Virus record (IMG/VR): IMGVR_UViG_2974671799_000001 | Coordinates: 96,001-160,000 of that record | Length of the DNA: 64,000 nucleotides | From: a virus | Lineage: Duplodnaviria; Caudoviricetes | Direction: 5' to 3' (one strand) | Shown here: positions 18,418 to 43,253 of the stretch, in pieces | How the letters are laid out: each line of letters starts with the position of its first letter | Position numbering within the stretch: position 1 is the first letter of the stretch | The notes under the pieces: generated by a model | What the model was told of the DNA's origin: nothing | Database searches by the model: none | The model's input: only the letters and a program-made list of their open reading frames with translations | Position numbers and translations under genes: made by a program

Positions 18418-18421
18418 AGTT

Positions 18422-22983: not shown

Positions 22984-23133
22984 TTTATTTATGTTATTTG
23001 TATTTATAATATATAAAGGAAAATGCACCTAGGTACATTTTCACTGATTTTCTTTCAACGAAAAATGCGTTTTACTGAGAATCTTCCAAAGAATTTGTTA
23101 AAATATTGTCACTACAATAAAGTTTGCATATGT
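22984..23133 (+). repeat. 150-bp inverted repeat, left copy
   Basis: Ungapped 135/150 identity (hand-aligned) to the reverse complement of 43104-43253; contains the near-palindrome GAAAATGCACCTAGGTACATTTTC. Confidence 0.95.
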
Positions 23134-23367
23134 TGTATCGTTTACCAGTATAAACCACGAAAAAAATTACACTAAGTTTACGTTCCCTTAACATTAAATT
23201 TACATTAAACGACTTAAACATTTAATAATCAAATAATTATGAAAATTGTTAAAAATGTTAAAATTTTTCACTTATTAACATTAACTTAACATTCGCTAGA
23301 ATTTCGCTATTTTCTTAACATTAAATTAACATTGGAAAATGGTCGTTTTTGGGTCATTTTTTATATA

Positions 23368-23405
23368 AAAAGTGGCTTTACGAATTAAATCAGAAAGCCA
23401 CTTTT
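23368..23405 (-). terminator. Terminator after the 1478-aa gene
   Basis: AAAAGTGGCTTT / AAAGCCACTTTT stem. Confidence 0.7.
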
Positions 23406-23428
23406 AAGATACAAAAAGTATCGACAAA

Positions 23429-26400
23429 TTAAACCCTATCAATTAAAATTTTAAGATTTTCATTCAAATCAACATTATCAAAAAGTTCTAAAGATGATGG
23501 ATTTTCAGAATAAAAATCAATTTCAACATCACCTTTCAAAACTTTAGAAATCACATAAATTTTGCTAAATTCTGAATCAAAAAATCTTCTTAAAATAATA
23601 TCTTCAAAATCGAATTGTGATATATTTTGAGAATTGGTGTTATTATCGACTCCTAAAATATCAATCTTATCTTGTTCTGTAAAGTTCTTTAAATCGAATC
23701 CATAATTTTCTAAAATTCTTTTCAAGTAATCCTTTACATTTGAATAAACATCAATTATATCAGAGTCTGTTTTAATAACATCAAACTCAATAACCTTTTT
23801 ACTGGATAAAACCAAACTTATATCATGTTTGTATTCCATAGGATTACTAAACCAATGCAAGTTCTTAAAATCCTTCTTATCACTATAAACTCTATAATGT
23901 TTTGATAAAATAGTTTCTGAAAAATCCTTCCTATAAAACCAAACCTTATCATTCAATCTATCACTATTATTTTTAGATGATGGTAAAATATTATATTTAC
24001 TTGTTTTATATGAATATCCATAATCAGTATAATTTATACTAAAGAAATAACTAGATTTCCTTAATTGCTTAGTAATAGGTGTATAAAGACCATTTTGCCT
24101 AATCATATTAATAGTGTACTTATCAGACCTATTAAGTATATCATTATTCACGTTTTTAAGACCTATAACAGCCATCTTTGCTACAGGTTCAATTGGGTAA
24201 ATATCTAATAATGATGTGTTACCATAAATGTCAGTAACAGTTGTATTATTTGACTTAATCCAATCCATGATATCAGATGTTGAAATTAATGAAAAACGTT
24301 CAATAGCACCTACATTTTTTAATACCCTATCATATTCAGCATTTTCCAAAAGAATAGCTTCAACAATATCCATCTTATTTTGTTCATAAAATACATTATT
24401 ATTTGCTAAATACTCAGCCAACATATCATATTCTATTGTTGTTGTTACACCCGACTCTGTTTCTTTTATTTTTACATGAATTTCTGTACACCAAAAATGG
24501 TCTTTTCCAATTTCCTGTATATCCATAAATGTTATTAACATACCGAAATTTGTTGTTTCAGAATCATCAGTATCACCAAAGTAAACTTCAAAATTTTGTC
24601 TAAGTTCTAAAAATGATGTGAAATCAACATCAAACCTTTCTAATAAACCTTTACCAACATGAACATAATTAATACCATTTTGTTGAAAGTACCAATCATT
24701 TGTTTTGAAGTTCCCTAAATATGTTTTTGGTGAAGATGAATCATTAATACGTAATGAAATATTCTTTCTACCGAAACTTGATAAACTTGTTTCTGTTGCA
24801 TAATCACCATCAGAAAAATATAATAATGACCTATCCAACCAATAAACACCTTCTTGCTCCAATCCTGTTAAAACAGGTTCAGGAACATACATTGTAACAT
24901 ATAATGTGATTGATTTGAAAGCCTCATTTTCTAAAAGTTCTATATCTCTATCCTTACTTTCAGGTGCTGTACTTGTATTTAGAATTGCTGAGAATTTCCA
25001 TCCTTCATATTTGGAATCTAAAACAATCTTAACACCTCTAAAGAAGCATGAGTATAAATCATCTTCCTTCTTTATAATAGAATGTGACCTTATATAATTG
25101 TAAACATCGAAATCAGTACTTAAAACATCTTCTTTAGTAATATGCTTTACTGTGTAACTTGTTAAAATATCATTAATATGTCTATCAAAACCTTTTATTG
25201 AATCATTAATCTTAATTTCAGGATTATAAACAGGTAATGTTAATGTAGTTTTATGAAAATTCAAATCATAAATAGTCAAATCAGATGTATGACCATAAGA
25301 CAAACTAATACGAATTTCATTATTTTCACCAACAGCACTACCACCCAATGATAAAACTTTTGTATCTATTATATTTTCGGAAACACCACCAATCAAATTA
25401 ACATCAACATTCCAACTATCTATAACAACCATATTATCTAAATCAACAATTTCAATAAGTGTTCTAACACTCGTGTTTGCTGAATTTTCTAATGAAAAAT
25501 TGAATGAAAATTTAATATCACTATTAATTCCTTGTTCTCTTATATCTAACTTTCTTGAAATATAATTTTGACTATTATTAGGACTAAACTTTATACCACC
25601 ATCACCCGAATCAATCAAATCACCGTTAAGAACAAACCATTCGGAAATTTCATCAGGTTCATTTATATCTGTGTAAAATCTTTGAATTATATTTGTTGGT
25701 TGTTCTGTATCAATCTCAACATCCTTAATAGCAGGAATTTTACCAACGTTCAAATCCCTCATATAAGGTGGTAAACCTGTACCAATAACTAACCATGAAT
25801 GTGTAGCGTTTCTCAAATCCCTATCTTTAATATCCAAAGATGGTGCAAAATTACTATATCTAAAAGGTTGAGCTAAATTCAATGTGTATGGTCTATTATA
25901 AACATCTAAACCATCCTTATACATGAATTTATTAATAGACTGATTTATCATTGAATTTGATATCAAATCGTGGTTTAAATTTTCTGATAGTCTATTAAAT
26001 TCATTATCAATACTAGTTGCTTCAAAACTACTAGTATTTACATCACCTATTAACATACCCCTTTCTAATGAAATAGAATCAAAATATCTTGAAATAATCG
26101 ATACTAATTCAGCTTTATATTCACTCATTTCAGATTCGGAAGGCATAACATCATATTTCCCTAAAAAGTTTTCATCACTAACTTGGTTTAATAACCATTG
26201 TTTATATGTGTTTAATTCGAAATCAAAAACATCACCATGATATGTATTTTCTCTATCAAAATCAAATGCTCTATGCTCACAAGTCTTTAATCTATATAAT
26301 TTTGACTTTTCTGTTTTAATAACATTAATTATATCACCATTTGGATTATCTTCTCTAATTGAACTTTCCAAATTAAAGAAGTAATAACCCAACCATTTAC

Positions 26401-27865
26401 CCATTTCAATAACTTTAGATGTGTTTTCTTTATAATTTAAACTATCACCACCATTTACATCTAAAGGTATTGGAAAAGCTGTTAAAACCGAGTCAGATGA
26501 TGGACTATAGAATGTGTTTTCATATACAGAAACATTATCTGTGAATTTTAAAGGTATAATAGAGTAATTACGTGGTTTTTCAACCAATTTTATATTTTTA
26601 TAAGACTCATCATTTATAAGACTCTTTATAACCAAGTATTCATTTTCGAAAATTAAAGCATCTACAAATAAATTAGAAATATTTGTTCTAGCATATAATG
26701 TAAAAGACTTTGCTATATTTTCAGCAGTTTTCATTATATCATTAACAACGATATCATCCTCACTAATAGTATATTCAATCTCTGTTACACCATCCAATTC
26801 AAGTATTAATTTTTCACCAACACTAGGAAGAAAATTTGGCTTAATCATTATTAATGGTGTAAAATCACCACTATGTGTAAATGATGTGAATTGTATTGCA
26901 TTCAATGTATCAACAACCACAGGATTATCATTTAAATCACTTTCCGTTAAAACATCTTGTGACATTGTGATAGTTCCTTTGTTTTCTATTATTTTGAAAT
27001 GAGCTTCTGTATCATTAAATTCATTAAGACTTTCTAACTCATCCATTGTTGTATAAAAACCTATTAAATCTACAAATGTATCGTTTAAATCATCATTTGA
27101 TAAATCTAAATCAAAACAAAATTCCAAGTTTAAGAATCTTGAATCTATCATTTCATTTTTCCTGAAACCATCAACAATATCATGATTAAATTCAGTCAAT
27201 GTTCTTTCGTTTGCCAAAACATTAACCATATTATTATCATATTTCGTTTCTAGCAAACCACTATTTAAACTAGTACCAGTAAAGCTAAAACCCTCTTCAA
27301 AATTAGCAAATACACCGATATCATCGATATTATCCTTCATATACTTGATATGTCTATCTAATTGTTTACCCATTTCAGAACTTCTAAAATCATGTACATG
27401 AACTAATTCTTTTATAAATGGTTTTCCTTTATTAAAGTCATTCCTATTAACTCTATAAACAACAAATAAATCAGGTTTTGTAGCCTCTTTATCTATGTAA
27501 ATAGGTGCAAAAAATCTAAATCGTTTTGTTATAAGTTCTGAAACATCAGAGTAAGCACCATAATTATAAATTCTTTCATGTTGTTCTGAAAGCTCTTTTG
27601 TAACTAGATTTGAATCACTCTTTACATCAAAAATATTATCTTTTATGTCGAATAAATCAGCATAATTTTTAAGATTCACCATTAAATTACTTGTAGTGTT
27701 CAATTTATAAGCTTTATAAAGTGACCTAGCAAGTTCAGAATTTGAATTTATTGAATCCAAATATATGTTATCCTCATCACAAACAAACTTTATATTCCCA
27801 CTTAAACGCGGATTACATTTATTAAGTGTATAAAAACTGTTTGATATTTTATTGTCTTTTGCCAT
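23429..27865 (-). CDS. Large hypothetical protein, probably virion structural (1478 aa)
   Basis: Long acidic ORF with a central beta-rich, carbohydrate-binding-like segment; function not recognised. Confidence 0.7.
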   Translation of the reverse strand: MAKDNKISNSFYTLNKCNPRLSGNIKFVCDEDNIYLDSINSNSELARSLYKAYKLNTTSNLMVNLKNYADLFDIKDNIFDVKSDSNLVTKELSEQHERIYNYGAYSDVSELITKRFRFFAPIYIDKEATKPDLFVVYRVNRNDFNKGKPFIKELVHVHDFRSSEMGKQLDRHIKYMKDNIDDIGVFANFEEGFSFTGTSLNSGLLETKYDNNMVNVLANERTLTEFNHDIVDGFRKNEMIDSRFLNLEFCFDLDLSNDDLNDTFVDLIGFYTTMDELESLNEFNDTEAHFKIIENKGTITMSQDVLTESDLNDNPVVVDTLNAIQFTSFTHSGDFTPLIMIKPNFLPSVGEKLILELDGVTEIEYTISEDDIVVNDIMKTAENIAKSFTLYARTNISNLFVDALIFENEYLVIKSLINDESYKNIKLVEKPRNYSIIPLKFTDNVSVYENTFYSPSSDSVLTAFPIPLDVNGGDSLNYKENTSKVIEMGKWLGYYFFNLESSIREDNPNGDIINVIKTEKSKLYRLKTCEHRAFDFDRENTYHGDVFDFELNTYKQWLLNQVSDENFLGKYDVMPSESEMSEYKAELVSIISRYFDSISLERGMLIGDVNTSSFEATSIDNEFNRLSENLNHDLISNSMINQSINKFMYKDGLDVYNRPYTLNLAQPFRYSNFAPSLDIKDRDLRNATHSWLVIGTGLPPYMRDLNVGKIPAIKDVEIDTEQPTNIIQRFYTDINEPDEISEWFVLNGDLIDSGDGGIKFSPNNSQNYISRKLDIREQGINSDIKFSFNFSLENSANTSVRTLIEIVDLDNMVVIDSWNVDVNLIGGVSENIIDTKVLSLGGSAVGENNEIRISLSYGHTSDLTIYDLNFHKTTLTLPVYNPEIKINDSIKGFDRHINDILTSYTVKHITKEDVLSTDFDVYNYIRSHSIIKKEDDLYSCFFRGVKIVLDSKYEGWKFSAILNTSTAPESKDRDIELLENEAFKSITLYVTMYVPEPVLTGLEQEGVYWLDRSLLYFSDGDYATETSLSSFGRKNISLRINDSSSPKTYLGNFKTNDWYFQQNGINYVHVGKGLLERFDVDFTSFLELRQNFEVYFGDTDDSETTNFGMLITFMDIQEIGKDHFWCTEIHVKIKETESGVTTTIEYDMLAEYLANNNVFYEQNKMDIVEAILLENAEYDRVLKNVGAIERFSLISTSDIMDWIKSNNTTVTDIYGNTSLLDIYPIEPVAKMAVIGLKNVNNDILNRSDKYTINMIRQNGLYTPITKQLRKSSYFFSINYTDYGYSYKTSKYNILPSSKNNSDRLNDKVWFYRKDFSETILSKHYRVYSDKKDFKNLHWFSNPMEYKHDISLVLSSKKVIEFDVIKTDSDIIDVYSNVKDYLKRILENYGFDLKNFTEQDKIDILGVDNNTNSQNISQFDFEDIILRRFFDSEFSKIYVISKVLKGDVEIDFYSENPSSLELFDNVDLNENLKILIDRV

Positions 27866-27889
27866 ATTGTATTTTAAATAAGGTTTAAA

Positions 27890-29617
27890 ATGATAAATAG
27901 AGTAAAGAGTTTAACGAGAAACGTTAAAAAATTACTTAATATATTTATACTTTCATATATGGTATTCGAAATGACAAATACTGGTAAAAGAGTTCTATAC
28001 CTAGACCCAATTACAAATAACGACATAACAAGTATTGAAATAGATACAGAAAAGGAAGGTTCTTTAATAGCATCTTATCTTTTTTCATACTCATTCGATA
28101 ATGTTAATTGGTCTGATTATGCATCAAAAAGTGATACTTTATCATATCTAAATTCAGAAGAAACACAATCACTATCAACATATTTAAGAGTTCTTTTAAG
28201 TGTTGATGTTGACCCAAATGTTACACAATCATCTTTAATTAGTAACTATATAGGTATTGAAAATATCATGGTTAATGGTTCATCAATAAATGTTTGTGGT
28301 ATGGAATACTACCAAGATATAAATATTGTCGCATCAAACATAACAAATAATGCATTAAACCCATTTAGGAACTTAGATAATGCACACCATATGAGGGAAC
28401 AGATTTCTAAGTCAATTGCTATGACTATTGGATATGACGGTGTTTACTTTAAACGTGTTCCGAATGAGGAAACAAAATCAATTATTTTCAAGTCATATAA
28501 AATGTATCAAACTTTACCTGCACGAGCGATTAAAGTAGTTATTCCACCTGATGCAAACAATAATGAAAATATCAACTCATTCCAGTTCTTTATGAATAGA
28601 GAAAATATCGAAGTTGAAATTTTATTATCTCAATGGCATGATATATACGGTGTTGATGTTTATCCGAATGCAAAAGACGCTATTTACATCAATGTTTTCG
28701 ATAGAATGTACACTATATCATCGGCTAAAAAGAAAAGAGATTTTATGCATAGGGCTGTTGCTTATAAATTATATCTAGGAGTGTTTAAAGAAGGTGTTGA
28801 GATTGATAATTCACAAGCAGAAGAGGAAATTACAGATTTTAGTGATTTCACAGCATATGATATAGAAAATTCAGACCAAGCATATGATGAGATAGAAAAT
28901 GCAACTGGCAATGGTGATGATATTGAGTTTAGCTTATCAGAAGAAGAATCAGAATTTCAAAGCATTGATTCCAAATTATTAGATTTTCACAAAGGTATTA
29001 GAAATATTAAAACTGGTTTACTATTCAATGATGTTGAGTTCCAAAGATATATGTATAAAAGCGATACAGATGTTGACTTCTTAACAAGATATGATTTATC
29101 AAAAATGGATGATAACGAATATAGTGTTTCGGCTTGGTTTAAAATTTCGGAAGTTGGTAAAAGTGTAATGTTATTTAGTCTTGGTGATGGTATAAATTAT
29201 GCAGAATTGATTTATGTAAATTCAAACGGATTCATAACCTTGCACACAAAAGCCTCAGAAATAAACAAATATGTAACAGCTACAGGTGAAGCTATTAAAG
29301 AAAATGGTTATTATTCTGTTGTTTTGTCTAGAAGAGGTAAAAATATTTCAATTTCATTGTTATATTATAATGATGGTTCAATTGATTTTGTACAAAACAT
29401 ATTAGCAAGTGTTGAAATACCAGTTAATAAAAAAGTATTGGAAATTAAAGGAAATCATAAAACATCAATAGGAAATATTAGAGTAAATAAAAAATCAGTA
29501 CCTAAACAACAAATTATACCAATGATAACAAACTGGTCATTGGATGCAAACGATTATTTAGTAATTGATAATTGTCAAACTGGTATTGATTCAATAAAAG
29601 TTCAATCAAACGCGTAA
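27890..29617 (+). CDS. Neck/head-closure protein (gp14-like) with a C-terminal LamG-like domain
   Basis: Central IGYDGVYFKR...IFKSY...YPNAKDAIYINVFDRMYTI resembles T4 gp14; YSVSAWFK and YYSVVLSR are concanavalin/LamG-like; true start may be 27959 or 27971. Confidence 0.55.
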   Translation: MINRVKSLTRNVKKLLNIFILSYMVFEMTNTGKRVLYLDPITNNDITSIEIDTEKEGSLIASYLFSYSFDNVNWSDYASKSDTLSYLNSEETQSLSTYLRVLLSVDVDPNVTQSSLISNYIGIENIMVNGSSINVCGMEYYQDINIVASNITNNALNPFRNLDNAHHMREQISKSIAMTIGYDGVYFKRVPNEETKSIIFKSYKMYQTLPARAIKVVIPPDANNNENINSFQFFMNRENIEVEILLSQWHDIYGVDVYPNAKDAIYINVFDRMYTISSAKKKRDFMHRAVAYKLYLGVFKEGVEIDNSQAEEEITDFSDFTAYDIENSDQAYDEIENATGNGDDIEFSLSEEESEFQSIDSKLLDFHKGIRNIKTGLLFNDVEFQRYMYKSDTDVDFLTRYDLSKMDDNEYSVSAWFKISEVGKSVMLFSLGDGINYAELIYVNSNGFITLHTKASEINKYVTATGEAIKENGYYSVVLSRRGKNISISLLYYNDGSIDFVQNILASVEIPVNKKVLEIKGNHKTSIGNIRVNKKSVPKQQIIPMITNWSLDANDYLVIDNCQTGIDSIKVQSNA

Positions 29618-29621
29618 TAAA

Positions 29622-30395
29622 ATGAATAAAGATTTTGAATTTAATGAAAATAACGCAAATTTCGATTCACTAATTCCAAAAGATATAACAGGGCATTCAA
29701 TTTATGAAGGTGGTAGCCTACAAGGTCTTAGTGAGTATAAAGAATTTGGCGTTGAGGAACAAAAGACGAAAATAGAAAAAGAAGCTAAAGACCTAGTTAA
29801 ATCATTACTAGGCGTTTACTTCGATGTTGACCTAATCAATAATGACGACCATTTAAAAGCAATTCAAGCTGTTGAAACATCAAACCTTTTAGGTTTATTG
29901 GAGTCAGCACGATATGCACAACACGCTGTATCAACATTGATGTTGAAAATAGATGCAGGTATGCACGCTGATATACAGATATATAGTATATTAATAGAGC
30001 TTCAAAAGAGTGCTTTGGATATCCAAATGAAAGTTGCTCAGTATTCTAGAACACTTTCACCTTATTTAAGGTCACTAAAAGAAGATATCGAAGAAGCAGG
30101 AAATACGACTATAAATGTTTTGAGTCGTGTTGAAACTGATGATGTTAGTAAAAAGTTGGATGGTGGTATTGAAGGTGATTCAAAACAAATAGGTGAAAAA
30201 GCATTTAGAGGTGCTTTAGCAATGAATCAGTACTTCAAAGATATGATGGAAGATATTGAGGAATCAAAGAAGGAAAGGAAAGAAACAAATCAAGCAGAAA
30301 TGAAACAATCAGAAGAAAAGAACACAGAATATATAGATTTCGAAGAGATTTCAGATGAAGATGAACCTGATGGATATTTAGATGAAGAAGAATAA
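29622..30395 (+). CDS. Helical acidic protein, possible terminase small subunit (gp16-like)
   Basis: Two long helices (IQIYSILIELQKSALDIQMK) followed by FRG and an acidic tail resemble the gp16 layout; weak evidence. Confidence 0.4.
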   Translation: MNKDFEFNENNANFDSLIPKDITGHSIYEGGSLQGLSEYKEFGVEEQKTKIEKEAKDLVKSLLGVYFDVDLINNDDHLKAIQAVETSNLLGLLESARYAQHAVSTLMLKIDAGMHADIQIYSILIELQKSALDIQMKVAQYSRTLSPYLRSLKEDIEEAGNTTINVLSRVETDDVSKKLDGGIEGDSKQIGEKAFRGALAMNQYFKDMMEDIEESKKERKETNQAEMKQSEEKNTEYIDFEEISDEDEPDGYLDEEE

Positions 30396-30424
30396 AAAGA
30401 ACCACTAAAATAGTGGTTCTTTTT
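30394..30424. terminator. Bidirectional terminator between convergent genes
   Basis: AAAAAGAACCACTA-AAA-TAGTGGTTCTTTTT. Confidence 0.8.
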
Positions 30425-30671: not shown

Positions 30672-30727
30672 TTTATTAAATTTGATATTTCAAATCTATT
30701 AAATAAAAACGAAACCACCAAAACATT

Positions 30728-31420: not shown

Positions 31421-31423
31421 ACC

Positions 31424-32020: not shown

Positions 32021-32024
32021 ATAT

Positions 32025-35203: not shown

Positions 35204-35221
35204 AAATAAAATCCGTTTCAG

Positions 35222-35252: not shown

Positions 35253-35273
35253 TCAAAAATAAATTTAATAAAA

Positions 35274-36089: not shown

Positions 36090-36121
36090 TAAACTATAAA
36101 TATTCTAAACATTTTTAGATA

Positions 36122-36904
36122 ATGAACATTACAGAATACTTAGAAAATATTACAGAAACAAAGACCTCATGTTCATGTGGTCTTGTTTTTCAAGTTGAAG
36201 AGGCTTTAGATGGTGATTTAATTGATAAGAAAGGATATGATTTAAACGGTCGTTTCAAGTACTGGAACACAAAACTTTTCAAATCAAAGTTAAAAATAGA
36301 AGGTGGTATTAAATTTGGTAGAACAACTAAAAATGCTACTGGAACAACAACATCTTTAGTTATTAGGGATAAGAGAAATAAGAAAGTTTTCACATCTGTT
36401 AGAGAAACAAAAGTTGTAATATCTAATAAGATGAATTATACACAAGAAACTTTGGATAAAGTTTTGATACATGAATTAATTCACGTATATTTTGACGAAG
36501 TTAAAATGTATGATGAAGGTCACGGTAATAACTTTAAGAAGTTAGCTAGTGAGATTTCTAAACACATTGGGTTCGAGATTCCGTTAAAAGATAATTTTTC
36601 AGAGATTGATACTGATGTTGTTAAACCAAAAGAAGTTGGTGTTATTGTTTATGAATTTCCGCATAAAACAAATGTTACATTCATGAGCGTAAATGCATAT
36701 GATAAACATATTGCTGAATGGGAATTGGCAACATTACCAAAATATAATCTTGGTGAAGTTAAAATAACTCACGGTATAGCAAAAACATTATTAGGAGATA
36801 AATACCCTAAAGTAAGAAACCTTAAAAAATTAGCTTTATATCCAATAAGCACAGATGATGCATTGAATATGCCTTGGGTTAAAGCAGAAGAATTATTTTT
36901 ATAA
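36122..36904 (+). CDS. SprT-like zinc metallopeptidase
   Basis: VLIHELIH followed by GHGNNFK (SprT HExxH...HG..F); TATAAATA upstream. Confidence 0.8.
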   Translation: MNITEYLENITETKTSCSCGLVFQVEEALDGDLIDKKGYDLNGRFKYWNTKLFKSKLKIEGGIKFGRTTKNATGTTTSLVIRDKRNKKVFTSVRETKVVISNKMNYTQETLDKVLIHELIHVYFDEVKMYDEGHGNNFKKLASEISKHIGFEIPLKDNFSEIDTDVVKPKEVGVIVYEFPHKTNVTFMSVNAYDKHIAEWELATLPKYNLGEVKITHGIAKTLLGDKYPKVRNLKKLALYPISTDDALNMPWVKAEELFL

Positions 36905-37521
36905 TGTTAGGTTTAGAAAGATATATCATAGAATCTTTACAAGATGTAAAAACTATGAAGACGTTTAAAAAATGGTTTGGTAAGTCAAAACTTAAAAACA
37001 AAGATGGTTCACCAAAGGTTATGTATCACGGAACAAGAGCTGAATTTAATGAATTTAGAGTTAATAATGAACTTGGCGCGCATTTTGGTGATGAGGAAGC
37101 CGCGAACGCAATACTATATGGTTCAAGTGGTAAGATAATGGAAGTTTACCTTAGATGCGAGAATCCAATTAGAGTTGATGATATGTTAGCTTTTGATTTC
37201 CCTACATTATGTGAATATTTTGAAGAAGATGAACCGAATAAATTACCAAAGGAAGAACTTGAAAAAATATTGGAGTTTAAAAAGGAATGGATAGCAATTG
37301 AGTTTAATTCACCACAAGAAATAAGAAAATCTGAAAGGATGGAAAAAGAGGGTGAAATGATGTTTGTTAATTTGTTTAAGAAAATGGGTCACGATTCTGT
37401 AGTTTACAGAAATCAAAGAGAAGGTAAAGCTGATTCATATATTATTTTTGACCCAAATCAAGTAAAATCAATTTATAATGAAGGAAAATTTAGTAGAAAA
37501 GATAACAACATCTATAAGTAA
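36904..37521 (+). CDS. ADP-ribosyltransferase-like protein (ART-PolyVal type), copy 1
   Basis: FKKWFG.SK, YHGT, GAHFG, VYL..ENP and GHDSVVYRNQRE...YIIFDPNQVKS. Confidence 0.7.
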   Translation: MLGLERYIIESLQDVKTMKTFKKWFGKSKLKNKDGSPKVMYHGTRAEFNEFRVNNELGAHFGDEEAANAILYGSSGKIMEVYLRCENPIRVDDMLAFDFPTLCEYFEEDEPNKLPKEELEKILEFKKEWIAIEFNSPQEIRKSERMEKEGEMMFVNLFKKMGHDSVVYRNQREGKADSYIIFDPNQVKSIYNEGKFSRKDNNIYK

Positions 37522-38008
37522 AAAAGAATGGTTAAAAAACTCAATGATTAAGAAACCAGTTTTTCACGGAACAGGTACTTACTTTGAGATTTTCAATACT
37601 GATACTAAAACTGAATTTGGTTCACATTTCGGAACATTGGAGTGTGCAAAGTATGTAGCATATAGGAGAAGTAAAAGTCCTATAATATTGAATGTTTTTC
37701 TTAATTTAGAGAATGTTTATGAATTACCCGACTTAGGAAAGTTTACTATCGAAAGAGTTCTTAACCAATTACATAAAGATGGTATTTTCACTAAAGATGA
37801 AATTATTGAATACAATCAACTAAATGATGATGTTAAATTAGGTCTTATTAAAAAAGACTTGGTTAAAAATCATAATATTGATGGTTTCAAGTATATAAAT
37901 AATAGAGAAGATAATGGAAACTTCTCTTACATAGCATTTTACCCAAATCAGATAAAATCTATTTTCGGTGAAATGACAAACCCAGTATTAACAAATTTTT
38001 ATAAGTAA
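37478..38008 (+). CDS. ADP-ribosyltransferase-like protein (ART-PolyVal type), copy 2
   Basis: FHGT, GSHFG, VFLNLEN and DGFKYINNRE...YIAFYPNQIKS; paralog of the upstream gene with a 44-bp overlap. Confidence 0.7.
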   Translation: MKENLVEKITTSISKKEWLKNSMIKKPVFHGTGTYFEIFNTDTKTEFGSHFGTLECAKYVAYRRSKSPIILNVFLNLENVYELPDLGKFTIERVLNQLHKDGIFTKDEIIEYNQLNDDVKLGLIKKDLVKNHNIDGFKYINNREDNGNFSYIAFYPNQIKSIFGEMTNPVLTNFYK

Positions 38009-38160
38009 AGTATGAAAAAAGATTTAAGTTGGGATTTGAATTGGAATGTAATCGATTCAAATCAAATAAAAGGTATTGATGAATTAGTATAAAAGATACG
38101 GATTTTGTGGTTTCTTATTTGGAACTATATAAAAAATCTCACATTAAATTGTGGGATTTT

Positions 38161-38191
38161 TTTGTTTTTAAGTATTTTTGTATTATATTTG
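38161..38191 (+). promoter_or_regulatory. Host-type promoter
   Basis: TTTG-N19-TATATTTG, preceded by a terminator-like hairpin at ~38131-38163. Confidence 0.7.
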
Positions 38192-38214
38192 CGCAAACTA
38201 AAAATATTTTTTAT

Positions 38215-39789
38215 ATGATTTTAAACCAAAAGAAACACGACCCATCAAAGTACGTTTTTGTTATTGACGGAAATTATTTGATGTCAAGAATGGCATTTGC
38301 TACTGGTCTAGACTTCTTTAAAAATCCTACATCAGACTCTAAAGAGTATTTTAAAGCATTGTGTAGTGGTTTTTCTAAATTAGTCACAGATTATATAGAT
38401 GCTATAGATGATGTTAAAATAGCAATAGATGGTTACTCATGGCGTAAGAAAGTGAAAATGATAGTACCTGAAATTTATAATGATTTACCAGTTGATAAAA
38501 GGACTTATAAAGCAAATCGTAACGTGGATGAAGTACCTATGGATATGAAAGTTGTAAAAACTGTATTCAATGACTTTGCTGATATGATGAAAGAAAAGTA
38601 TAACGTTCCAAAACTTTTAGCAGATAATGCCGAGGGTGATGATTTTCTTTATTATGCTATCAAAAAGGAAATTGAAAATGGTAGAAAAGTTCTTTTATAT
38701 ACATCCGATGGTGATGCACATCAATTAGCAAATGAAAATGTATTCATTCTAAAACAGATGCCAAACGATAGACCTAATAAATTGGTAATGTGTGAGAGTA
38801 AAAAAGATGAATTTTACCCAAATCATGGAAAGGAAACATCAGCTTTAGAAAGTTATTTTGGTGCTAATGATATTAAAACTTCTGATAATCTAGTTAAATA
38901 CTTTAAAGAAGATGATATCATGGTCGCAACACCTGCTGAATTTCTACTTCTTAAATCTATGAGTGGTGATAAAAAAGATAATATACCACCAACATTTGCG
39001 TGGAAAAAACAAGATAAAAATGGTCAGTTAAAAGAGTTCAAACCAACAATGATGTTTATCAAAAAAGGTCTTGAACGCATGGGTAAAACTATAGAAGATG
39101 TGACAGTTAAAGATTTATTCGACCCTAATTTTGTTAAGGATATTTGTGTAAATACTTTAAAATCAACACCTTTAATTGACAAGGTTAATGATTTTAAGAG
39201 GCAGTATAAAGAAAATATGAAGCACGTTTTCGATAAGAAGGGTGATTTCAATCAAATGTTGATAGATACTGTTTTGGGTTCAGAAGAAAAGGTTTTAGCA
39301 CCATTATACACAAATACAAAATTGGATGGAACTGTTTTAAGACCAACATTATCTCAATTGGAATATGCTTTAGAGGTTACAGAAATTTATATGAATAATA
39401 ACCCTGAAAGTAAGATTAAGTTGGAGCTAAAGAACAATGCATTCATTCAAAAGTTTTGTGAAGTTATGCATGAATCACATCCATTAATGCGTGATATAGA
39501 TTTAATCGTTAAAATTTTCATACAAAATAGAACTTTACTATATTTGAATGATAAAACTATTCCTGATTATGTTTTAAAGCAAATGGATGATTGTTACGAA
39601 TCTCAATCTAATTTGAGGTGTGAGGTTAGTGTTATTTCGGATTTCAAAAACTTAATTTCAACAGCACCAGTATCTGAAAGTATGTTTGATGCTATAGATG
39701 ATGATGTTGAAGATGAAGAAAGTGATGTTACAGAAGAGGAATTAGATGATTTATTAGGTGGTATTAGTGGTTTTGAAACTATGTTTTAG
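38215..39789 (+). CDS. rnh: RNase H / 5'-3' exonuclease (T4 rnh, FEN-like)
   Basis: VIDGNYL, IAIDG.SWR, YKANR, AEGDD, TSDGD..QL and GDKKDNIP; start moved to ATG 38215. Confidence 0.85.
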   Translation: MILNQKKHDPSKYVFVIDGNYLMSRMAFATGLDFFKNPTSDSKEYFKALCSGFSKLVTDYIDAIDDVKIAIDGYSWRKKVKMIVPEIYNDLPVDKRTYKANRNVDEVPMDMKVVKTVFNDFADMMKEKYNVPKLLADNAEGDDFLYYAIKKEIENGRKVLLYTSDGDAHQLANENVFILKQMPNDRPNKLVMCESKKDEFYPNHGKETSALESYFGANDIKTSDNLVKYFKEDDIMVATPAEFLLLKSMSGDKKDNIPPTFAWKKQDKNGQLKEFKPTMMFIKKGLERMGKTIEDVTVKDLFDPNFVKDICVNTLKSTPLIDKVNDFKRQYKENMKHVFDKKGDFNQMLIDTVLGSEEKVLAPLYTNTKLDGTVLRPTLSQLEYALEVTEIYMNNNPESKIKLELKNNAFIQKFCEVMHESHPLMRDIDLIVKIFIQNRTLLYLNDKTIPDYVLKQMDDCYESQSNLRCEVSVISDFKNLISTAPVSESMFDAIDDDVEDEESDVTEEELDDLLGGISGFETMF

Positions 39790-39792
39790 GAT

Positions 39793-40332
39793 ATGAATAG
39801 AAATTTAACTAAAGTAGGTGTAGATGTTGATGGTGTTTTCCTCGACTTCTACAGACACCTTTGTAATCGCAAAGGAATTGATATGATGATGCTTGATGAG
39901 TGGACTAATGATGAAATTAATGAAGTGTTTTATTCGATAATAGGTGATAATGAATTTTGGCAGACAATTCCTGCATTAAATATTCCTGAAATAATAACAT
40001 TTGATTTTGATTATTATATCACAGCATTACCACCCGAACATGAAAATGATAGGAAAATAAATCTAAGAAATTTAGGATTTCCTGATAAACCAATTATTGT
40101 TTCTATTGATAAGGTTAATGATTGTATTAAGCATGGTATTGGTTTAATAATTGATGATAAAATAAGCACTATTGAGGAATGTAACAATGCAGGTTTAGAA
40201 ACTATACATTATAAACCTAATTACTATACTCATAAATATGCAGAAGGTTACCCATCAGTAAGAAGTATGTTAAAAGTTGGTCAATTAGTAAAGCAATTTC
40301 AGGCAAGAAATAAGAACACAAATAATGTATAA
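39793..40332 (+). CDS. HAD-family 5'(3')-deoxyribonucleotidase-like protein
   Basis: DVDGV motif I, YIT motif II, K, and IIDD motif IV. Confidence 0.8.
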   Translation: MNRNLTKVGVDVDGVFLDFYRHLCNRKGIDMMMLDEWTNDEINEVFYSIIGDNEFWQTIPALNIPEIITFDFDYYITALPPEHENDRKINLRNLGFPDKPIIVSIDKVNDCIKHGIGLIIDDKISTIEECNNAGLETIHYKPNYYTHKYAEGYPSVRSMLKVGQLVKQFQARNKNTNNV

Positions 40333-40334
40333 GT

Positions 40335-40808
40335 ATGAATATTTTAAACCAAGAAAAAACCGATACTATTACTAAAATTTCATGGAATGATTTTTTGGAA
40401 GCATTCTTTATTAAGAAAAGTATCTATAAAAAGTTAACACCTAAAGCTAAAGAAGAACATCATTTTATGTTATGTAGAACATTAGCTAAAAAAGACCCTA
40501 TTTATATCAATAAATTACAAGAATATAAACATTGGACTATTATAGATATGCTTCACAGAAAATATTATAATGGTAAAGTTATTCCTAATTTTGTGTTTTT
40601 ATCAAATAAACAAGGTAAGAAAATAGATGTTTTAAAGGAGTTTAAAGAAAATGTTATCGAATACTACTTAAAAATAAATAACATTGAAATAAAGTCATTA
40701 AAAAGGCTTTGTGAGCTTTACCCCGATGATATGAAAGTAGAGTTAAAAGAGATAGATAAAATTCTTAATTCTAAAATCAGAAAATTAAAAGGACAAAAAG
40801 TAAAATAA
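40335..40808 (+). CDS. Hypothetical protein, possibly clamp-loader small subunit (gp62-like)
   Basis: Helical; FMLCRTLA segment reminiscent of gp62; weak evidence. Confidence 0.35.
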   Translation: MNILNQEKTDTITKISWNDFLEAFFIKKSIYKKLTPKAKEEHHFMLCRTLAKKDPIYINKLQEYKHWTIIDMLHRKYYNGKVIPNFVFLSNKQGKKIDVLKEFKENVIEYYLKINNIEIKSLKRLCELYPDDMKVELKEIDKILNSKIRKLKGQKVK

Positions 40809-40830
40809 AAAGCCCCATTCGGGGCTTTTT
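40807..40830. terminator. Bidirectional terminator
   Basis: AAAAGCCCC-ATTC-GGGGCTTTTT between convergent genes. Confidence 0.85.
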
Positions 40831-41594
40831 TAGTCTAAAGAAACTATTTTTGATTTTGTTTTTGGGTAAAAATCTTTATTACTTTTATACATTTTTCCTG
40901 AAATCTGACTTTTTAATTGTGTATTTAATTTCAAAAACGGTGCAAAAAGTGGCATTAAAACAGATGATTTAATACAAATTTGTGATGCTTCTTTTGCAAA
41001 TGAATCAACTATTTCTGAAAATGCTTTAATTGTTTCATTTGTCATATCCAAAGCATCATGGTTTGTTTGTCCTAATGTTGCGGGTTCTTCTGATTTATCT
41101 TCTGAACCTAATGATATAGACTCATTTGAAAGGTGTATAACTTTATCATATTGACTATTTTTGAAATAAAGAGTATTATCCTTCCTTAAATTTATTATTG
41201 CTGATTCATCATCCTTATCATATTGTAATATTAGACCATCTTTTTCAGTAAAAAGAACCTTTACTAATCCACTCGATTCATATTCCTCTAAGTCCTTATA
41301 AAGAAGTACGGCAGACTTTGTGTACTCATTATCATCAATACCCATATCATTAGCTGATTTACCATTAAATGTGTACCAAATAGGACACATTATTTCACCT
41401 TCTATGAAGTCTATTTGTACAATAGAATCGATTGGTGGCGGGTCTAATCTATTGAATGATATATTCTTTGGTATTGCCCAAGGAATTATACTTTCATCAA
41501 CATTATCATAAAATCCATTTACACGGACTTTAACACGACCTATTTTCTTAGGGTCGTCATTATCTATTACTGTTCCAAAATATCCGTTTTCCAT
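40830..41594 (-). CDS. Baseplate central spike/hub protein (gp5 N-terminal OB-fold type)
   Basis: YFGTVIDNDDPKKIGRVKVRV, IPWAIP and PPIDSIVQIDF..G...P OB-fold motifs; no lysozyme domain. Confidence 0.8.
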   Translation of the reverse strand: MENGYFGTVIDNDDPKKIGRVKVRVNGFYDNVDESIIPWAIPKNISFNRLDPPPIDSIVQIDFIEGEIMCPIWYTFNGKSANDMGIDDNEYTKSAVLLYKDLEEYESSGLVKVLFTEKDGLILQYDKDDESAIINLRKDNTLYFKNSQYDKVIHLSNESISLGSEDKSEEPATLGQTNHDALDMTNETIKAFSEIVDSFAKEASQICIKSSVLMPLFAPFLKLNTQLKSQISGKMYKSNKDFYPKTKSKIVSLD

Positions 41595-41595
41595 A

Positions 41596-42702
41596 TTATC
41601 TTATTAAATTAGCCAAACCTGCACCTTGAATATTTCCTTGTAAAAGGTTGTTTATATCATCCAACCCAGCACCAATATTATTTGAAAGTGTTGAAACTCT
41701 AGTGGCTAAACCACTTAATTGATACTCTTGATATGTATAATATGATGCTTGACTTTCACCATATCTAGATATATTATCTGTTGTATTTGTTGCTATTTGG
41801 TCTAGAATTTTTCTAGGTGTGAAATCTTTAGTTTCACCACTCAATACAGTTGTTAAAAGACTCATTTCCTCGCTAGAAAATGTCATTTCACCCATCATTG
41901 AAGGTGATAACATACTTAAATCAACATTCTCAAATCCTATAACAAAACTATTAAAGTTTTCCTGAACACTCATATTTGTCATTGCATCATAAAAAGCACC
42001 ACCACTTTCTGTAAGAAATTCACAATTTCCAAACTCGAATAACTGGTGATTTATTTCAGCAAATGATTGTGTTTCCCAGTTTCTAAGATATTTTATATCT
42101 GTTTTAAATACTCTCATATCAATAACATAAACAGACAACCCAAAAGACCTAAGATTCTCAGGTAATACAAATACTTTTCTATTTTTATCGTAAACTACCT
42201 CTCTCCACATTCTATTCAAAGATGCAATCTTTAAATCTAATGTTTCATATGTTCCAATAATTAATTTATTTTGATTCCTAAAGAATGAAATTTGCTCAAA
42301 AGGTTTTGTATAAACCTCTCTAAGACCTTCTATATTATTAAAAATCCAAGGTTGATGTGTATTAACTTCTGAAAGTCTAGCAATGAATAATTTAAGTATG
42401 TTATAACGATATGTATCACCGATATCATCCAAGTATTTCAATGCAGAGTTTGGATAACTTTCATCAGCTAGTAAACCATCAGTTGCTGAAAAGTTAAAAA
42501 ATAGTTTGAATCCATTAACAGTTGGGTCATTTAATAAAGACCTATGATTTTGTCTTAAAAGTTCAGGTGATTTATCATACGCATTCAAAAACTTCTCAAC
42601 ATCTTTATCAACATGGTATGTTTTTCCAATTATAAGATGTTTACCTTTTTGCCTTGCTTCATGTCTTTCAGTATTTGATGCTGTAATTACTTTTAATGCC
42701 AT
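41596..42702 (-). CDS. Hypothetical virion protein, possibly tail-tube-fold baseplate component
   Basis: Adjacent to the gp5-like gene; beta-rich (LFEFGNCEF); no firm family assignment. Confidence 0.5.
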   Translation of the reverse strand: MALKVITASNTERHEARQKGKHLIIGKTYHVDKDVEKFLNAYDKSPELLRQNHRSLLNDPTVNGFKLFFNFSATDGLLADESYPNSALKYLDDIGDTYRYNILKLFIARLSEVNTHQPWIFNNIEGLREVYTKPFEQISFFRNQNKLIIGTYETLDLKIASLNRMWREVVYDKNRKVFVLPENLRSFGLSVYVIDMRVFKTDIKYLRNWETQSFAEINHQLFEFGNCEFLTESGGAFYDAMTNMSVQENFNSFVIGFENVDLSMLSPSMMGEMTFSSEEMSLLTTVLSGETKDFTPRKILDQIATNTTDNISRYGESQASYYTYQEYQLSGLATRVSTLSNNIGAGLDDINNLLQGNIQGAGLANLIR

Positions 42703-42738
42703 TTTAAATAAATTTATTCTTTAGTATATTTATCATTC

Positions 42739-42751
42739 TAATATAACAATT
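42739..42751 (-). promoter_or_regulatory. 13-bp upstream motif AATTGTTATATTA (copy 2)
   Basis: 36 nt upstream of the 42702 start. Confidence 0.65.
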
Positions 42752-42822
42752 AAAATAATAATTATTTTGTTCAATTTTTAACCATGTTCATGAATCGTGA
42801 ACAATACAAAATAATGAACAAA

Positions 42823-42873
42823 ATATTCCGCTTTTATGGAATATATTAACATTATTCCACTTTTATGGAATAT
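42823..42873. repeat. Two direct copies of the dyad TATTCC-N8-GGAATA
   Basis: ATATTCCGCTTTTATGGAATAT (42823) and TTATTCCACTTTTATGGAATAT (42852), 29 bp apart. Confidence 0.8.
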
Positions 42874-43103
42874 TTAATTAAAATACTGATTATCAATATT
42901 CTACACTTTTTATTTTGTCCTTAAAAATAAATGTTAAAATTTTGTTAAAATTGTTAAAATCACATACATAAAATATTCAACATGACCAATTTTTTAACAT
43001 TTTAAATTATAATTTTAAGTAACTGATTTACAACGTTTTATAAGAATTTAACAAATTTCAGTATTTTGTTTAATTTTAAACAATTACACCCGAAAAATTT
43101 TTG

Positions 43104-43253
43104 ACATATACAAAACTTACTGTAGCGACAATATTTTAACAATTTCTTTATCATATTCTCAATAAAACGCATTTTTCATTGAAAGAAAATCAGTAAAAAT
43201 ATACCTAGGTGCATTTTCTTTTATATATTATAAATACAAATAACATAAATAAA
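43104..43253 (-). repeat. 150-bp inverted repeat, right copy
   Basis: Reverse complement matches 22984-23133 at 135/150; contains ACCTAGGT and TATAAATA (43229-43236). Confidence 0.95.

What the first reader, a model, noticed from the sequence alone, without database searches (positions are those of the whole stretch)
22984..43253. A pair of 150-bp non-coding inverted repeats brackets a 20-kb segment
Seen: 22984-23133 and the reverse complement of 43104-43253 align without gaps at 135/150, with mostly transition mismatches. They occupy the two largest intergenic gaps. Each has a loop-less dyad centred on ACCTAGGT (left copy GAAAATGCACCTAGGTACATTTTC) and an outward-facing TATAAATA. Each ends ~95 bp upstream of an outward-reading operon (gp2-portal on the left, the polymerase operon on the right). 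Inference: this is a duplicated cis-element. It could be twin replication origins firing outward, recombination sites for inverting the 20-kb block, or a duplicated master promoter. No recombinase is visible in this window.
Basis: partly seen in the sequence, partly recalled or inferred. Interest (0 to 1): 0.8.

Follow-up and report, generated by a model that had tools for sequence, protein, structure and literature searches.

The report
Seven-copy intergenic control cassette, jumbo phage
The two inverted 150-bp repeats are real, but they are just two of seven copies of a non-coding cassette that sits at the head of major gene blocks in a 235-kb T4-related phage, most likely a transcription stop/start and protein-binding module rather than the ends of an invertible segment.

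Summary
In detail: 22984-23133 and the reverse complement of 43104-43253 match at 135/150 without gaps. The interpretation as a special pair does not hold. The window lies in a 234,670-bp T4-related jumbo phage with Bacteroidota-type promoters. That genome holds seven copies of the 150-bp core at 88-100% identity. All seven are intergenic and point the same way as the operon downstream. The two window copies are inverted only because the genome's two arms are transcribed in opposite directions.

Each copy sits inside a longer unit of 190-455 bp, in two subfamilies. Each unit carries arrays of TGTTAA/TTAACA hexamers. It also carries a 24-bp dyad that reads as an intrinsic terminator on the sense strand, and a T4-type late-promoter box TATAAATA 22 bp past the dyad centre. 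The phage encodes a gp55-like late sigma. A strict host-type promoter follows the core in 4 of 7 copies. A terminator hairpin precedes the unit in all 5 copies that have a co-directional upstream gene.

Both junctions of the 20-kb block keep the gene order of Tenacibaculum phage PTm1. No serine or tyrosine recombinase was found. Skew follows the coding strand.

Best reading: a repeated composite transcription-control cassette, related in kind to PeSLs. Origins and ncRNA genes are not excluded. No transcript or read data could be obtained.

The parts
22979..23371 (-). Left repeat unit (subfamily B), about 393 bp. Its sense strand is the minus strand, and it points at the gp2-portal operon.
   Evidence: Self-BLAST pairs genome 118979-119371 with 211670-211278 over 395 bp at 95.2%. 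Window coordinate = genome coordinate - 96000.
22984..23133 (-). Left copy of the 150-bp core shared by all seven genome copies.
   Evidence: It is 100% identical to the copy at genome 211516-211665.
23019..23042 (-). 24-bp dyad centred on CCTAGG. On the sense strand it is a terminator-like hairpin followed by a T-rich run.
   Evidence: The terminator scan finds 1 site in 22600-23600 against 0.1 expected in shuffles: 10 pairs, 4-nt loop. My own scan finds it again.
23001..23008 (-). TATAAATA box (T4-type late-promoter motif). It starts 22 nt downstream of the dyad centre and 123 nt upstream of the gp2 start codon.
23190..23340 (.). Array of TGTTAA/TTAACA hexamers in the left unit: 4 direct copies, then 2 inverted, then 1 direct.
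   Evidence: Positions -301 to -163 from the dyad centre. Tandem pairs at genome 119261, 119275 and 119315.
23372..23402 (-). Hairpin plus T-run just after the stop codon of the upstream 1478-aa gene. It is the terminator of the preceding transcription unit.
   Evidence: RNAfold of the 92 nt after the stop codon gives -23.7 kcal/mol for a GTGGCTTT...AAAGCCAC stem followed by TTTTTAT.
22139..22885 (-). First gene downstream of the left copy: a gp2-like DNA end protector. Portal (20332-22083) and head genes follow it.
   Evidence: phrog_429 at E 1.2e-39 and phrog_213 (portal) at E 4.4e-90. Synteny with PTm1 gp2, portal and MCP.
42879..43330 (+). Right repeat unit (subfamily A), about 450 bp. Its sense strand is the plus strand, and it points at the DNA polymerase operon.
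   Evidence: Self-BLAST pairs genome 138879-139330 with the units at 60294-60742, 79524-79931 and 181791-182245 at 89-91%.
43104..43253 (+). Right copy of the 150-bp core.
43195..43218 (+). Dyad of the right copy. It is degenerate, with 9 of 12 Watson-Crick pairs.
   Evidence: Read. The terminator scan does not call it.
43229..43236 (+). TATAAATA box of the right copy, 117 nt upstream of the next start codon.
42930..43142 (.). TGTTAA/TTAACA sites of the right unit: three direct TGTTAAAA at about 10-nt spacing, then inverted TTAACA at -213, -159 and -71 from the dyad centre.
43315..43322 (+). Host-type -7 box TACATTTG between the core and the gene start. It has no TTG at -33.
   Evidence: genome 139315.
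43346..43684 (+). First gene downstream of the right copy, 112 aa with no family match. Split DNA polymerase genes follow at 43723-45276 and 46490-47902.
52402..52761 (+). gp55-like late sigma factor, the likely reader of TATAAATA boxes.
   Evidence: phrog_234 (late sigma transcription factor; T4 gp55 matches it at E 2.9e-69) matches genome 148432-148701 at E 1.4e-7.

Best explanation
The two repeats are members of a seven-copy, strictly intergenic cassette that marks the head of major transcription units in a 235-kb T4-related phage of a Bacteroidota host.

Read in the direction of the downstream operon, each unit follows the terminator of the preceding operon. It then carries, in order:
(i) an array of TGTTAA/TTAACA hexamers at roughly one-helical-turn spacing. 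I infer these are binding sites for an unidentified DNA-binding protein;
(ii) a 24-bp dyad that folds on the sense RNA into a hairpin followed by U-rich sequence. I infer it is a second, insulating terminator, and possibly also an operator;
(iii) a TATAAATA box 22 nt past the dyad centre. I infer it is a late promoter read by the phage's gp55-like sigma factor.
A host-type promoter (TTG-N19-22-TAnnTTTG) usually lies between the cassette and the first gene.

The cassette would thus shield the downstream operon from read-through and give it a late-phase (and possibly regulated) start.

The copies are probably kept 88-100% alike by the homologous recombination and gene conversion typical of T4-type phages. 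The inverted orientation of the two window copies simply reflects the divergent transcription of the genome's two arms.

Shown here: copy number, positions, orientation, motifs, flanking terminators, the gp55 homologue and synteny. Inferred: every activity (termination, promoter use, protein binding, gene conversion).
For: Copies and position:
- Seven full-length matches of the 150-nt core at 89-100% identity to the query, four on one strand in the left arm and three on the other strand in the right arm.
- 7 of 7 copies are co-oriented with the next gene, 22-455 nt upstream of it.
- All seven lie in 7 of the 12 largest intergenic gaps, and 6 of the 7 largest gaps hold a copy.

Flanking terminators:
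- 5 of 5 copies with a co-directional upstream gene have a strong hairpin plus T-run right after that gene's stop codon, at -13 to -27.5 kcal/mol.
- The other 2 copies face a divergent gene.

Dyad:
- It is called terminator-like on the sense strand, 1 site against 0.1 expected.
- In my scan it is called on the sense strand in 4 of 7 copies.
- The C-to-T changes in its 5' arm keep G.U pairs only in the sense RNA.

TATAAATA box:
- It is invariant in 7 of 7 copies, at +22 from the dyad centre.
- Outside the repeats, 14 of 17 intergenic TATAAATA point at a gene start within 150 nt, including the large terminase. This is the strongest directional bias among 55 same-composition permutations.
- A gp55-like sigma factor is encoded, phrog_234 at E 1.4e-7.

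Host promoters:
- TTTG-N19/20-TAnnTTTG occurs 39 times, 31 of them intergenic.
- A strict one lies between core and gene in 4 of 7 copies.

Hexamer arrays:
- Tandem TTAACA pairs at 9-12-nt start-to-start spacing occur 17 times in the genome, against 0.85 in shuffles.
- 16 of them are intergenic: 13 lie inside 6 of the 7 units and 3 at one extra site.
- Subfamilies A and B share no BLAST-detectable flank, yet both keep this hexamer layout.
Against: - No transcript data exist, so no promoter, terminator or binding site is shown to work.
- Only 1 of the 7 downstream operons is morphogenetic (gp2-portal-head). The other six start with replication, nucleotide-metabolism or unknown genes, which is not where a late promoter is most expected.
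- A promoter plus terminator needs perhaps 60 nt. That does not explain 150 nt kept at 88-100%, nor arrays 250-300 nt upstream.
- The dyad is degenerate in the right window copy, and the terminator scan does not call it there.
- The TATAAATA boxes in the repeats lie 47-480 nt from the start codon, against 7-141 nt (10 of 14 under 50 nt) for the 14 boxes outside the repeats.
- The distant relative PTm1 has no comparable repeat family or hexamer arrays, so conservation across phages could not be shown.
Confidence: 0.55

Rival explanations
1. The units are multiple replication origins. The iteron-like TGTTAA arrays would bind an initiator. The dyad and the adjacent A+T-only stretch would serve as an unwinding element. 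A promoter would supply an R-loop primer, as at T4 oriF/oriG, and each origin would fire in the direction of local transcription.
For: - Direct hexamer repeats at about 10-nt spacing, confined almost entirely to these units.
- A dyad next to a 24-nt stretch with no G or C.
- Units insulated by terminator-like hairpins on both sides.
- 7 of 7 copies co-oriented with transcription.
- T4 is known (recalled, not from a call) to use several dispersed promoter-plus-unwinding-element origins.
Against: - Coding-strand GC skew is about +0.2 in all 17 gene blocks whatever their orientation, with no switch at any copy (window profile).
- No initiator protein was identified.
- The copy at genome 19101 lacks the direct array.
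- PTm1 has nothing comparable.
- Skew is a weak test for a phage that replicates largely by recombination.
Confidence: 0.15
2. Each unit encodes a non-coding RNA of roughly 250-270 nt, transcribed away from the downstream operon. It would start from a weak host-type promoter inside the core (TTG-N22-AAnnTTTG), run through the hexamer array and end at the bidirectional terminator of the upstream operon.
For: - A host-like box AAnnTTTG with TTG 22 nt upstream is kept in 7 of 7 cores. Substitutions fall at the two 'n' positions.
- The upstream terminators are A-run/T-run symmetric hairpins.
Against: - The box departs from the genome's own promoters, which use TA and a spacer of 19-20 nt.
- The array region folds no better than shuffles on either strand in both window copies, z from -1.1 to +0.3.
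- No Rfam match to the repeat element at E <= 1 in the seven loci. The six weak hits listed lie elsewhere in the flanks and are below their gathering scores.
- The alifold consensus keeps little beyond the dyad.
- Subfamilies A and B differ in sequence over most of the putative RNA.
Confidence: 0.07
3. The repeats are recombination sites that invert the DNA between oppositely oriented copies, including the 20-kb block. This would give genome isomers by site-specific or homologous recombination.
For: - The copies are inverted and long enough for T4-type homologous recombination.
- The most similar pairs always combine one copy from each arm: 94.8%, 95.2% and 90.7%.
- In Campylobacter group II phages, repeat regions separate modules that are inverted between CP21 and CP220 (PMC4546147, passages read).
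Against: - No resolvase (PF00239) or tyrosine recombinase (PF00589) in a six-frame search of the genome, while the controls rang in 12 and 14 of 14 genomes.
- There are seven copies, not two.
- Both junctions of the 20-kb block keep PTm1 gene order: ORF-295 homologue next to gp2-portal, and baseplate hub with ORF-235 homologue next to DNA polymerase.
- The inversion breakpoint against PTm1 is at genome 123865/123890, not at a copy.
- The longest perfect match between the two window copies is 34 nt.
- The tidy two-arm strand layout argues against frequent fixed inversions.
Confidence: 0.04
4. The unit is a selfish non-autonomous mobile element (MITE-like), or a set of terminase recognition (pac-like) sites built from hexamer arrays, as in phage P1.
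For: - The PTm1 gap between the ORF-235 homologue and DNA polymerase is 45 bp, against 643 bp here. That fits an insertion in this lineage.
- Hexamer arrays flanking a central site resemble P1 pac (recalled, not from a call).
Against: - No terminal inverted repeats or target-site duplications at the ends of the four subfamily-A copies.
- No transposase-like neighbour. The flanking proteins are unrelated to one another, with no blastp hit below E 0.38 among 13 neighbours.
- The strict co-orientation with operons (7 of 7) is unexpected for random insertion.
- T4-type headful packaging is not known to need pac sites (recalled).
Confidence: 0.06

Closest known systems
PeSL (promoter-early stem-loop) cassettes of T4-type phages (Arbiol et al. 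2010, PMC2839356, passages read; Comeau et al. 2014, PMC4122927, abstract and outline read)
   Same: Both are repeated, intergenic, composite terminator-hairpin-plus-promoter motifs in a T4-related genome. Both are conserved over about 100 nt or more, long enough to serve as substrates for homologous recombination.
   Different: PeSLs are about 100 bp and numerous. They are built on a host sigma-70-type early promoter that overlaps the stem-loop, and they cluster around ORFans in hyperplastic regions. Here there are 7 copies of 150-455 bp. The box next to the hairpin is the late-type TATAAATA. Hexamer arrays lie 150-300 nt upstream. The copies head core replication and head-assembly operons. 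Separately, this genome has true PeSL-like host promoters with a hairpin around the -33 TTTG.
Repeat regions RR1-RR4 of Campylobacter group II (CP220/CP21) T4-related phages (PMC4546147, passages read)
   Same: Both are a few long non-coding repeat regions that divide a large T4-related genome into modules. In both, some regions are in direct and some in inverted orientation, and they are suspected recombination substrates.
   Different: The Campylobacter regions are bipartite arrays of up to 18 units of 72-86 bp with a 13-nt core, and they are linked to a real module inversion between CP21 and CP220. Here each site holds a single unit with a unique 150-bp core, and the two junctions tested against PTm1 are collinear.
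T4 late promoters (TATAAATA read by gp55 with gp33 and the gp45 clamp; recalled knowledge)
   Same: An exact TATAAATA box occurs in 7 of 7 copies, and a gp55-like protein is encoded. Other TATAAATA boxes in this genome sit upstream of genes such as the large terminase.
   Different: A T4 late promoter needs only the 8-bp box. It does not explain the conserved flanks, and six of the seven downstream operons are not classic late genes.
T4 origins oriF/oriG (promoter plus DNA unwinding element) and iteron-type origins (recalled knowledge)
   Same: Both are several dispersed sites in one genome, each with a promoter next to an A+T-rich stretch and short direct repeats at helical spacing.
   Different: T4 origins share no long common sequence. 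No initiator protein and no replication signal was found here.

Membership tests
PeSL cassettes | Intergenic composite of a stem-loop terminator and a promoter | tested here: met
   A terminator-like dyad on the sense strand is followed 22 nt from its centre by TATAAATA in 7 of 7 copies.
PeSL cassettes | The promoter is a strong host sigma-70-type early promoter that overlaps or abuts the stem-loop | tested here: not met
   The shared core has no sense-strand TAnnTTTG box. Strict host-type promoters lie 73-115 nt past the dyad centre, outside the core, in 4 of 7 copies.
PeSL cassettes | About 100 bp, many copies, concentrated in hyperplastic regions next to ORFans | tested here: not met
   7 copies of 150-455 bp. 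They lie ahead of the gp2-portal, DNA polymerase, helicase, DHFR, RNA ligase and phosphoesterase operons.
PeSL cassettes | Mark indel or shuffling breakpoints between close relatives | not testable with these tools
   The only close relative seen (DNA polymerase 73% identical, on a 231,974-bp contig) could not be fetched.
Site-specific invertible segment (Gin/Hin-type or tyrosine-recombinase inverton) | A pair of short inverted sites flanking the segment | tested here: inconclusive
   Inverted copies do flank the block. But they are 150 bp long and are two of seven.
Site-specific invertible segment (Gin/Hin-type or tyrosine-recombinase inverton) | A serine or tyrosine recombinase encoded nearby | tested here: not met
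   PF00239 and PF00589 give 0 matches in the whole genome at E <= 0.01. The controls rang in 12 and 14 of 14 genomes.
Site-specific invertible segment (Gin/Hin-type or tyrosine-recombinase inverton) | Both orientations present in the population | not testable with these tools
   No sequencing run could be listed for the stretch.
Replication origin (T4 oriF/oriG type or iteron type) | Short direct repeats (iterons) and an A+T-rich unwinding stretch | tested here: met
   17 tandem TTAACA pairs in the genome against 0.85 in shuffles, with 13 of the 16 intergenic ones inside the units. A 24-nt stretch free of G and C follows the dyad.
Replication origin (T4 oriF/oriG type or iteron type) | A replication-direction signal or initiation activity at the site | tested here: inconclusive
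   Coding-strand GC skew is about +0.2 in all blocks whatever their orientation. Coverage data are unavailable.
T4-type late promoter | TATAAATA box and a gp55-family sigma factor in the genome | tested here: met
   The box is present in 7 of 7 copies. A gp55-like ORF lies at window 52402-52761, phrog_234 at E 1.4e-7.
T4-type late promoter | Drives late (virion) genes, with a transcript start just downstream of the box | tested here: inconclusive
   Only 1 of 7 downstream operons is a head-assembly operon. Transcript starts cannot be mapped here.
Campylobacter group II phage repeat regions | Bipartite arrays of many 72-86-bp units with a 13-nt core | tested here: not met
   Each site holds one unit, and self-BLAST shows no tandem multi-unit arrays. 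The feature definition comes from PMC4546147.

The most novel reading that the evidence does not exclude
The seven units are fixed 'hubs' where an unidentified phage DNA-binding protein assembles on the TGTTAA arrays and the 24-bp dyad. The hubs would couple DNA replication to late transcription. Each would be a dispersed origin, or a clamp-loading or nicking site, placed directly upstream of a gp55-type late promoter. This would give a T4-related phage sequence-defined enhancers of late transcription in place of T4's random nicks and forks.
Probability: 0.12. Interest if true: 0.75.

Novelty: new variant of a known kind. Interest (0 to 1): 0.4.

Why it matters
Transcription control in T4-related phages of Bacteroidota has, to my knowledge, not been mapped. 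I ran no dedicated literature search for this. My three searches were aimed at PTm1, PeSLs and Campylobacter repeat regions.

This genome shows three separable layers of signals in sequence alone:
- host-type TTG/TAnnTTTG promoters, often wrapped in a hairpin;
- T4-type TATAAATA boxes together with a gp55-like sigma factor;
- a seven-copy long cassette with hexamer arrays and a dyad, at the head of the main replication operons and the head-assembly operon.

If the cassette binds a phage regulator, it would define a 'middle/late' control system different from T4's MotA/AsiA system. It would also give seven natural test sites for that system. The cassette copies are the longest stretches of homology in the genome. 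They are therefore the most likely breakpoints for module rearrangement and for assembly errors in related metagenomic genomes.

Tried and rejected
Searches for relatives that carry the element:
- blastn of 22700-23500 against the phage collection: no match.
- Exact-pattern scans of IMG/VR and JGI metagenomes with the dyad region: 0 hits.
- Protein-anchored locus searches with gp2, the DNA polymerase, its 73% relative P0002 and a 10-sequence alignment, in viral, genome and metagenome collections: no usable locus.
- tblastn of P0002 in the phage collection: only relatives at 29% identity or less.

Sequencing runs: none was listed for window 21500-24500, and no RNA holder was listed.

Rfam at E <= 1 on the seven loci: only six weak, off-target hits below their gathering scores.

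RNA structure:
- The array region on both strands of both window copies gives z from -1.1 to +0.3.
- The putative leader after TATAAATA gives z +0.5.
- The core around the degenerate right-copy dyad gives z -0.8.
- A first shuffle script timed out. I replaced it and the strand-folding runs.

Small ORF in the core: a 44-50-aa antisense ORF exists in 3 of 7 copies only. The start codon is absent in the other 4 (read), and in the copy I traced (genome 60366) the nearest in-frame ATG meets a stop after 6 codons. Rejected as a gene.

Paralogy of flanking genes: none.

Terminal inverted repeats and target duplications: none seen.

A sigma-70 region-2 domain (PF04542) and phrog_12791: no match in the genome.

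The GCGCGG(AGA) island after the core occurs in subfamily A only and is not significant in the window.

Analogous repeats in PTm1: self-BLAST shows only 13 short pairs of 60-139 bp, and there are no tandem hexamer arrays.

Earlier findings of this scan: nothing on this genome or on this sequence.


Full report
OBSERVATION. The inverted repeat is real. The repeat finder lists 22984-23133 and 43104-43253 as a 150-nt pair, 90% complementary and 19,970 nt apart. It is the longest inverted pair in the window. A direct comparison gives 135 of 150 identities, with 10 transitions and 5 transversions. Similarity collapses just outside both ends, to 8/30 and 14/30. The copies lie in the window's two largest intergenic gaps, 543 and 643 bp. 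Each contains a dyad centred on CCTAGG and an outward-facing TATAAATA. The cores end 98 and 92 nt before the gp2-like gene (phrog_429, followed by portal, phrog_213) and before a 112-aa ORF followed by a split DNA polymerase.

CONTEXT. The window is bases 96001-160000 of a 234,670-bp virus record that CheckV rates complete.
- The genome has about 30% G+C.
- It has T4-type head, baseplate and replication genes.
- Its nearest named relatives are distant: Tenacibaculum phages PTm1/PTm5, Sphingomonas phage PAU and Chryseobacterium phages MA9V, with portals about 30% identical.
- The promoter signal of Bacteroidota is obvious. TTTG-N19/20-TAnnTTTG occurs 39 times, 31 of them in the 9% of the genome that is intergenic. 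TTGACA-N16-18-TAnAAT occurs once.
- Genes in the left arm (to 123,865) are almost all on the minus strand. Genes from 139,346 onward are almost all on the plus strand.

THE PAIR IS TWO OF SEVEN. A search of the genome with the left copy finds seven full-length matches at 89-100% identity:
- genome 19101, 60366, 79559 and 118984 (the left window copy) on one strand;
- genome 139104 (the right window copy), 182017 and 211516 on the other strand.
Every copy is intergenic and points the same way as the next gene, 22-455 nt upstream of it, in 7 of 7 cases. Six of the seven largest intergenic gaps hold a copy.

Self-BLAST shows that the 150-nt core is embedded in longer units of two kinds.
- Subfamily A: genome 60366, 79559, 139104 and 182017, 405-455 bp at 89-95%. 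The copy at 19101 shares about 190 bp with this subfamily.
- Subfamily B: genome 118984 and 211516, 395 bp at 95%, with a 100% identical core.
No other intergenic repeat in the genome comes close in length.

ANATOMY, read towards the downstream operon.
1. Upstream terminator. Where the upstream gene is co-directional (5 of 7 copies), a strong hairpin plus T-run directly follows its stop codon, at -13 to -27.5 kcal/mol.
2. Hexamer array. There are three or four direct TGTTAA at about 10-nt spacing near -300 to -250 from the dyad centre. Inverted TTAACA follow near -230/-213, -160 and -71. Tandem TTAACA pairs at this spacing occur 17 times in the genome, against 0.85 in shuffles. Of these, 16 are intergenic: 13 lie inside six of the seven units and 3 at one extra site, window about 18375-18420. 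Subfamilies A and B share no alignable flank, yet both keep this layout.
3. Dyad. The 24-bp dyad is perfect in one copy. The changes in the other copies are C-to-T in the 5' arm, which keep G.U pairs only in the sense RNA. On the sense strand it is followed by T-rich sequence. The scan calls it terminator-like in the left window copy but not in the degenerate right copy.
4. Late-promoter box. TATAAATA is invariant, at +22 from the dyad centre.
5. Host promoter. A strict host-type promoter lies between the core and the gene in 4 of 7 copies, and a -7 box alone in the right window copy. The gp2-portal copy has none.

IS TATAAATA MEANINGFUL HERE? The genome encodes a gp55-like protein at window 52402-52761. 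It matches phrog_234 at E 1.4e-7, the family that T4 gp55 itself matches at E 2.9e-69. Outside the repeats, 14 of 17 intergenic TATAAATA point at a start codon within 150 nt, including that of the large terminase. This is the strongest directional bias among 55 permutations of the same letters. A late-promoter reading of the box is therefore reasonable, though untested.

Inversion.
- No resolvase or tyrosine-recombinase domain is found in six-frame searches whose controls rang.
- tblastn of all ORFs against PTm1 shows that both junctions of the 20-kb block are ancestral. The ORF-295 homologue lies next to gp2-portal-head genes on the left. The baseplate hub and ORF-235 homologue lie next to DNA polymerase on the right.
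- The point where this genome is inverted relative to PTm1 is genome 123865/123890, 4.7 kb inside the block and not at a repeat.
- Homologous recombination between inverted copies remains physically possible, but nothing indicates that it is their function.

Origins.
- Coding-strand GC skew is about +0.2 in all 17 gene blocks whatever their orientation. GC3 skew is noisier, 0.03-0.28, but shows no switch at the copies.
- The window's skew profile simply follows gene strand.
- This gives no support, but it is a weak test.

Master promoter. This is the closest of the three readings. However, the unit is more than a promoter, and the shared core contains only a late-type box.

OTHER RIVALS.
- Structured RNA. 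There is no Rfam match to the repeat. Folds of the array region, the putative leader and the core are no better than shuffles.
- Small ORF. An antisense 44-50-aa ORF exists in 3 of 7 copies only.
- Mobile element. There are no terminal inverted repeats or target duplications and no related flanking genes.

COMPARISON WITH KNOWN SYSTEMS. In kind, this is a repeated composite terminator/promoter cassette, like the PeSLs of T4-type phages (PMC2839356, passages; PMC4122927, abstract). It fails the features that define PeSLs: a host early promoter overlapping the stem-loop, a size of about 100 bp, many copies, and ORFan-rich regions. Separately, this genome has true PeSL-like host promoters with a hairpin around the -33 TTTG. 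It also recalls the module-separating repeat regions of Campylobacter group II phages (PMC4546147, passages), but it lacks their multi-unit arrays. Earlier notes of this scan on other jumbo phages describe terminator-promoter cassettes that launch a folded leader of about 50 nt. Here the sequence after the box is neither shared by both subfamilies nor structured.

LIMITS. No relative carrying the element could be reached. A 231,974-bp contig with a 73%-identical DNA polymerase exists, but it was not retrievable. No sequencing run was listed. PTm1 has no equivalent family. All activities are therefore inferred from sequence. Supplementary files of the cited papers were not consulted.

VERDICT. 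The 'bracketing pair' reading is not supported. The element is a seven-copy intergenic control cassette, most likely an insulating terminator plus a late promoter plus a protein-binding array (confidence 0.55). Multi-copy origins are the main alternative (0.15).

Noticed in passing
whole genome (G000), including the window: Extreme avoidance of short palindromes. GATC occurs 0 times, CCGG 0, GGCC 1 and GGTACC 0 in 234,670 bp, against 614, 100, 100 and 13 expected from base composition. PTm1 shows the same trend, with 8 GATC and 8 CCGG sites. This suggests selection against host restriction systems.
   Followed up: partly
window 38130-38190, and genome 183694, 195124, 6276, 3794, 35257, 25513, 214472, 221774: Many host-type promoters (TTTG ... 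TAnnTTTG) have a hairpin plus T-run wrapped around the -33 TTTG. This looks like a Bacteroidota-style counterpart of PeSL early promoter/terminator cassettes. The short intergenic repeat pairs in the self-BLAST correspond to these.
   Followed up: partly
window 18375-18420 (minus strand): An eighth site with the hexamer motif: four tandem TTAACATTTAT units directly after a terminator hairpin. They are sense to the local genes and are followed by a TATATTTG box and an ORF of about 35 aa. The 150-bp core is absent.
   Followed up: partly
window 52402-52761 (+): A 119-aa ORF matches the T4 gp55 late-sigma family (phrog_234, E 1.4e-7).
   Followed up: yes
genome 191520-191594, 192032-192111, 192399-192478 (outside the window): aragorn finds a tRNA with a CUA (amber-reading) anticodon and two tRNA-Ile(UAU) in the second-largest intergenic gap. 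I did not examine whether TAG is ever read through.
   Followed up: no
window 27865/27890: Two genes start back to back only 24 bp apart. This point is both the strand-switch of the genome's two arms and the inversion breakpoint relative to PTm1. The cumulative GC-skew minimum of the window lies nearby, in the 27001-29000 window.
   Followed up: partly
window 4772-14461 (-): A 3229-aa ORF with many internal repeats spaced in multiples of 48 nt, plus four copies of a 181-nt unit at 1.3-2.6-kb spacing. It is partly homologous to PTm1 ORF-006 and is probably a fibre-like virion protein.
   Followed up: no
window 43723-45276 and 46490-47902 (+): The DNA polymerase is split into two genes, with two ORFs between them. 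It is also split in PTm1.
   Followed up: no
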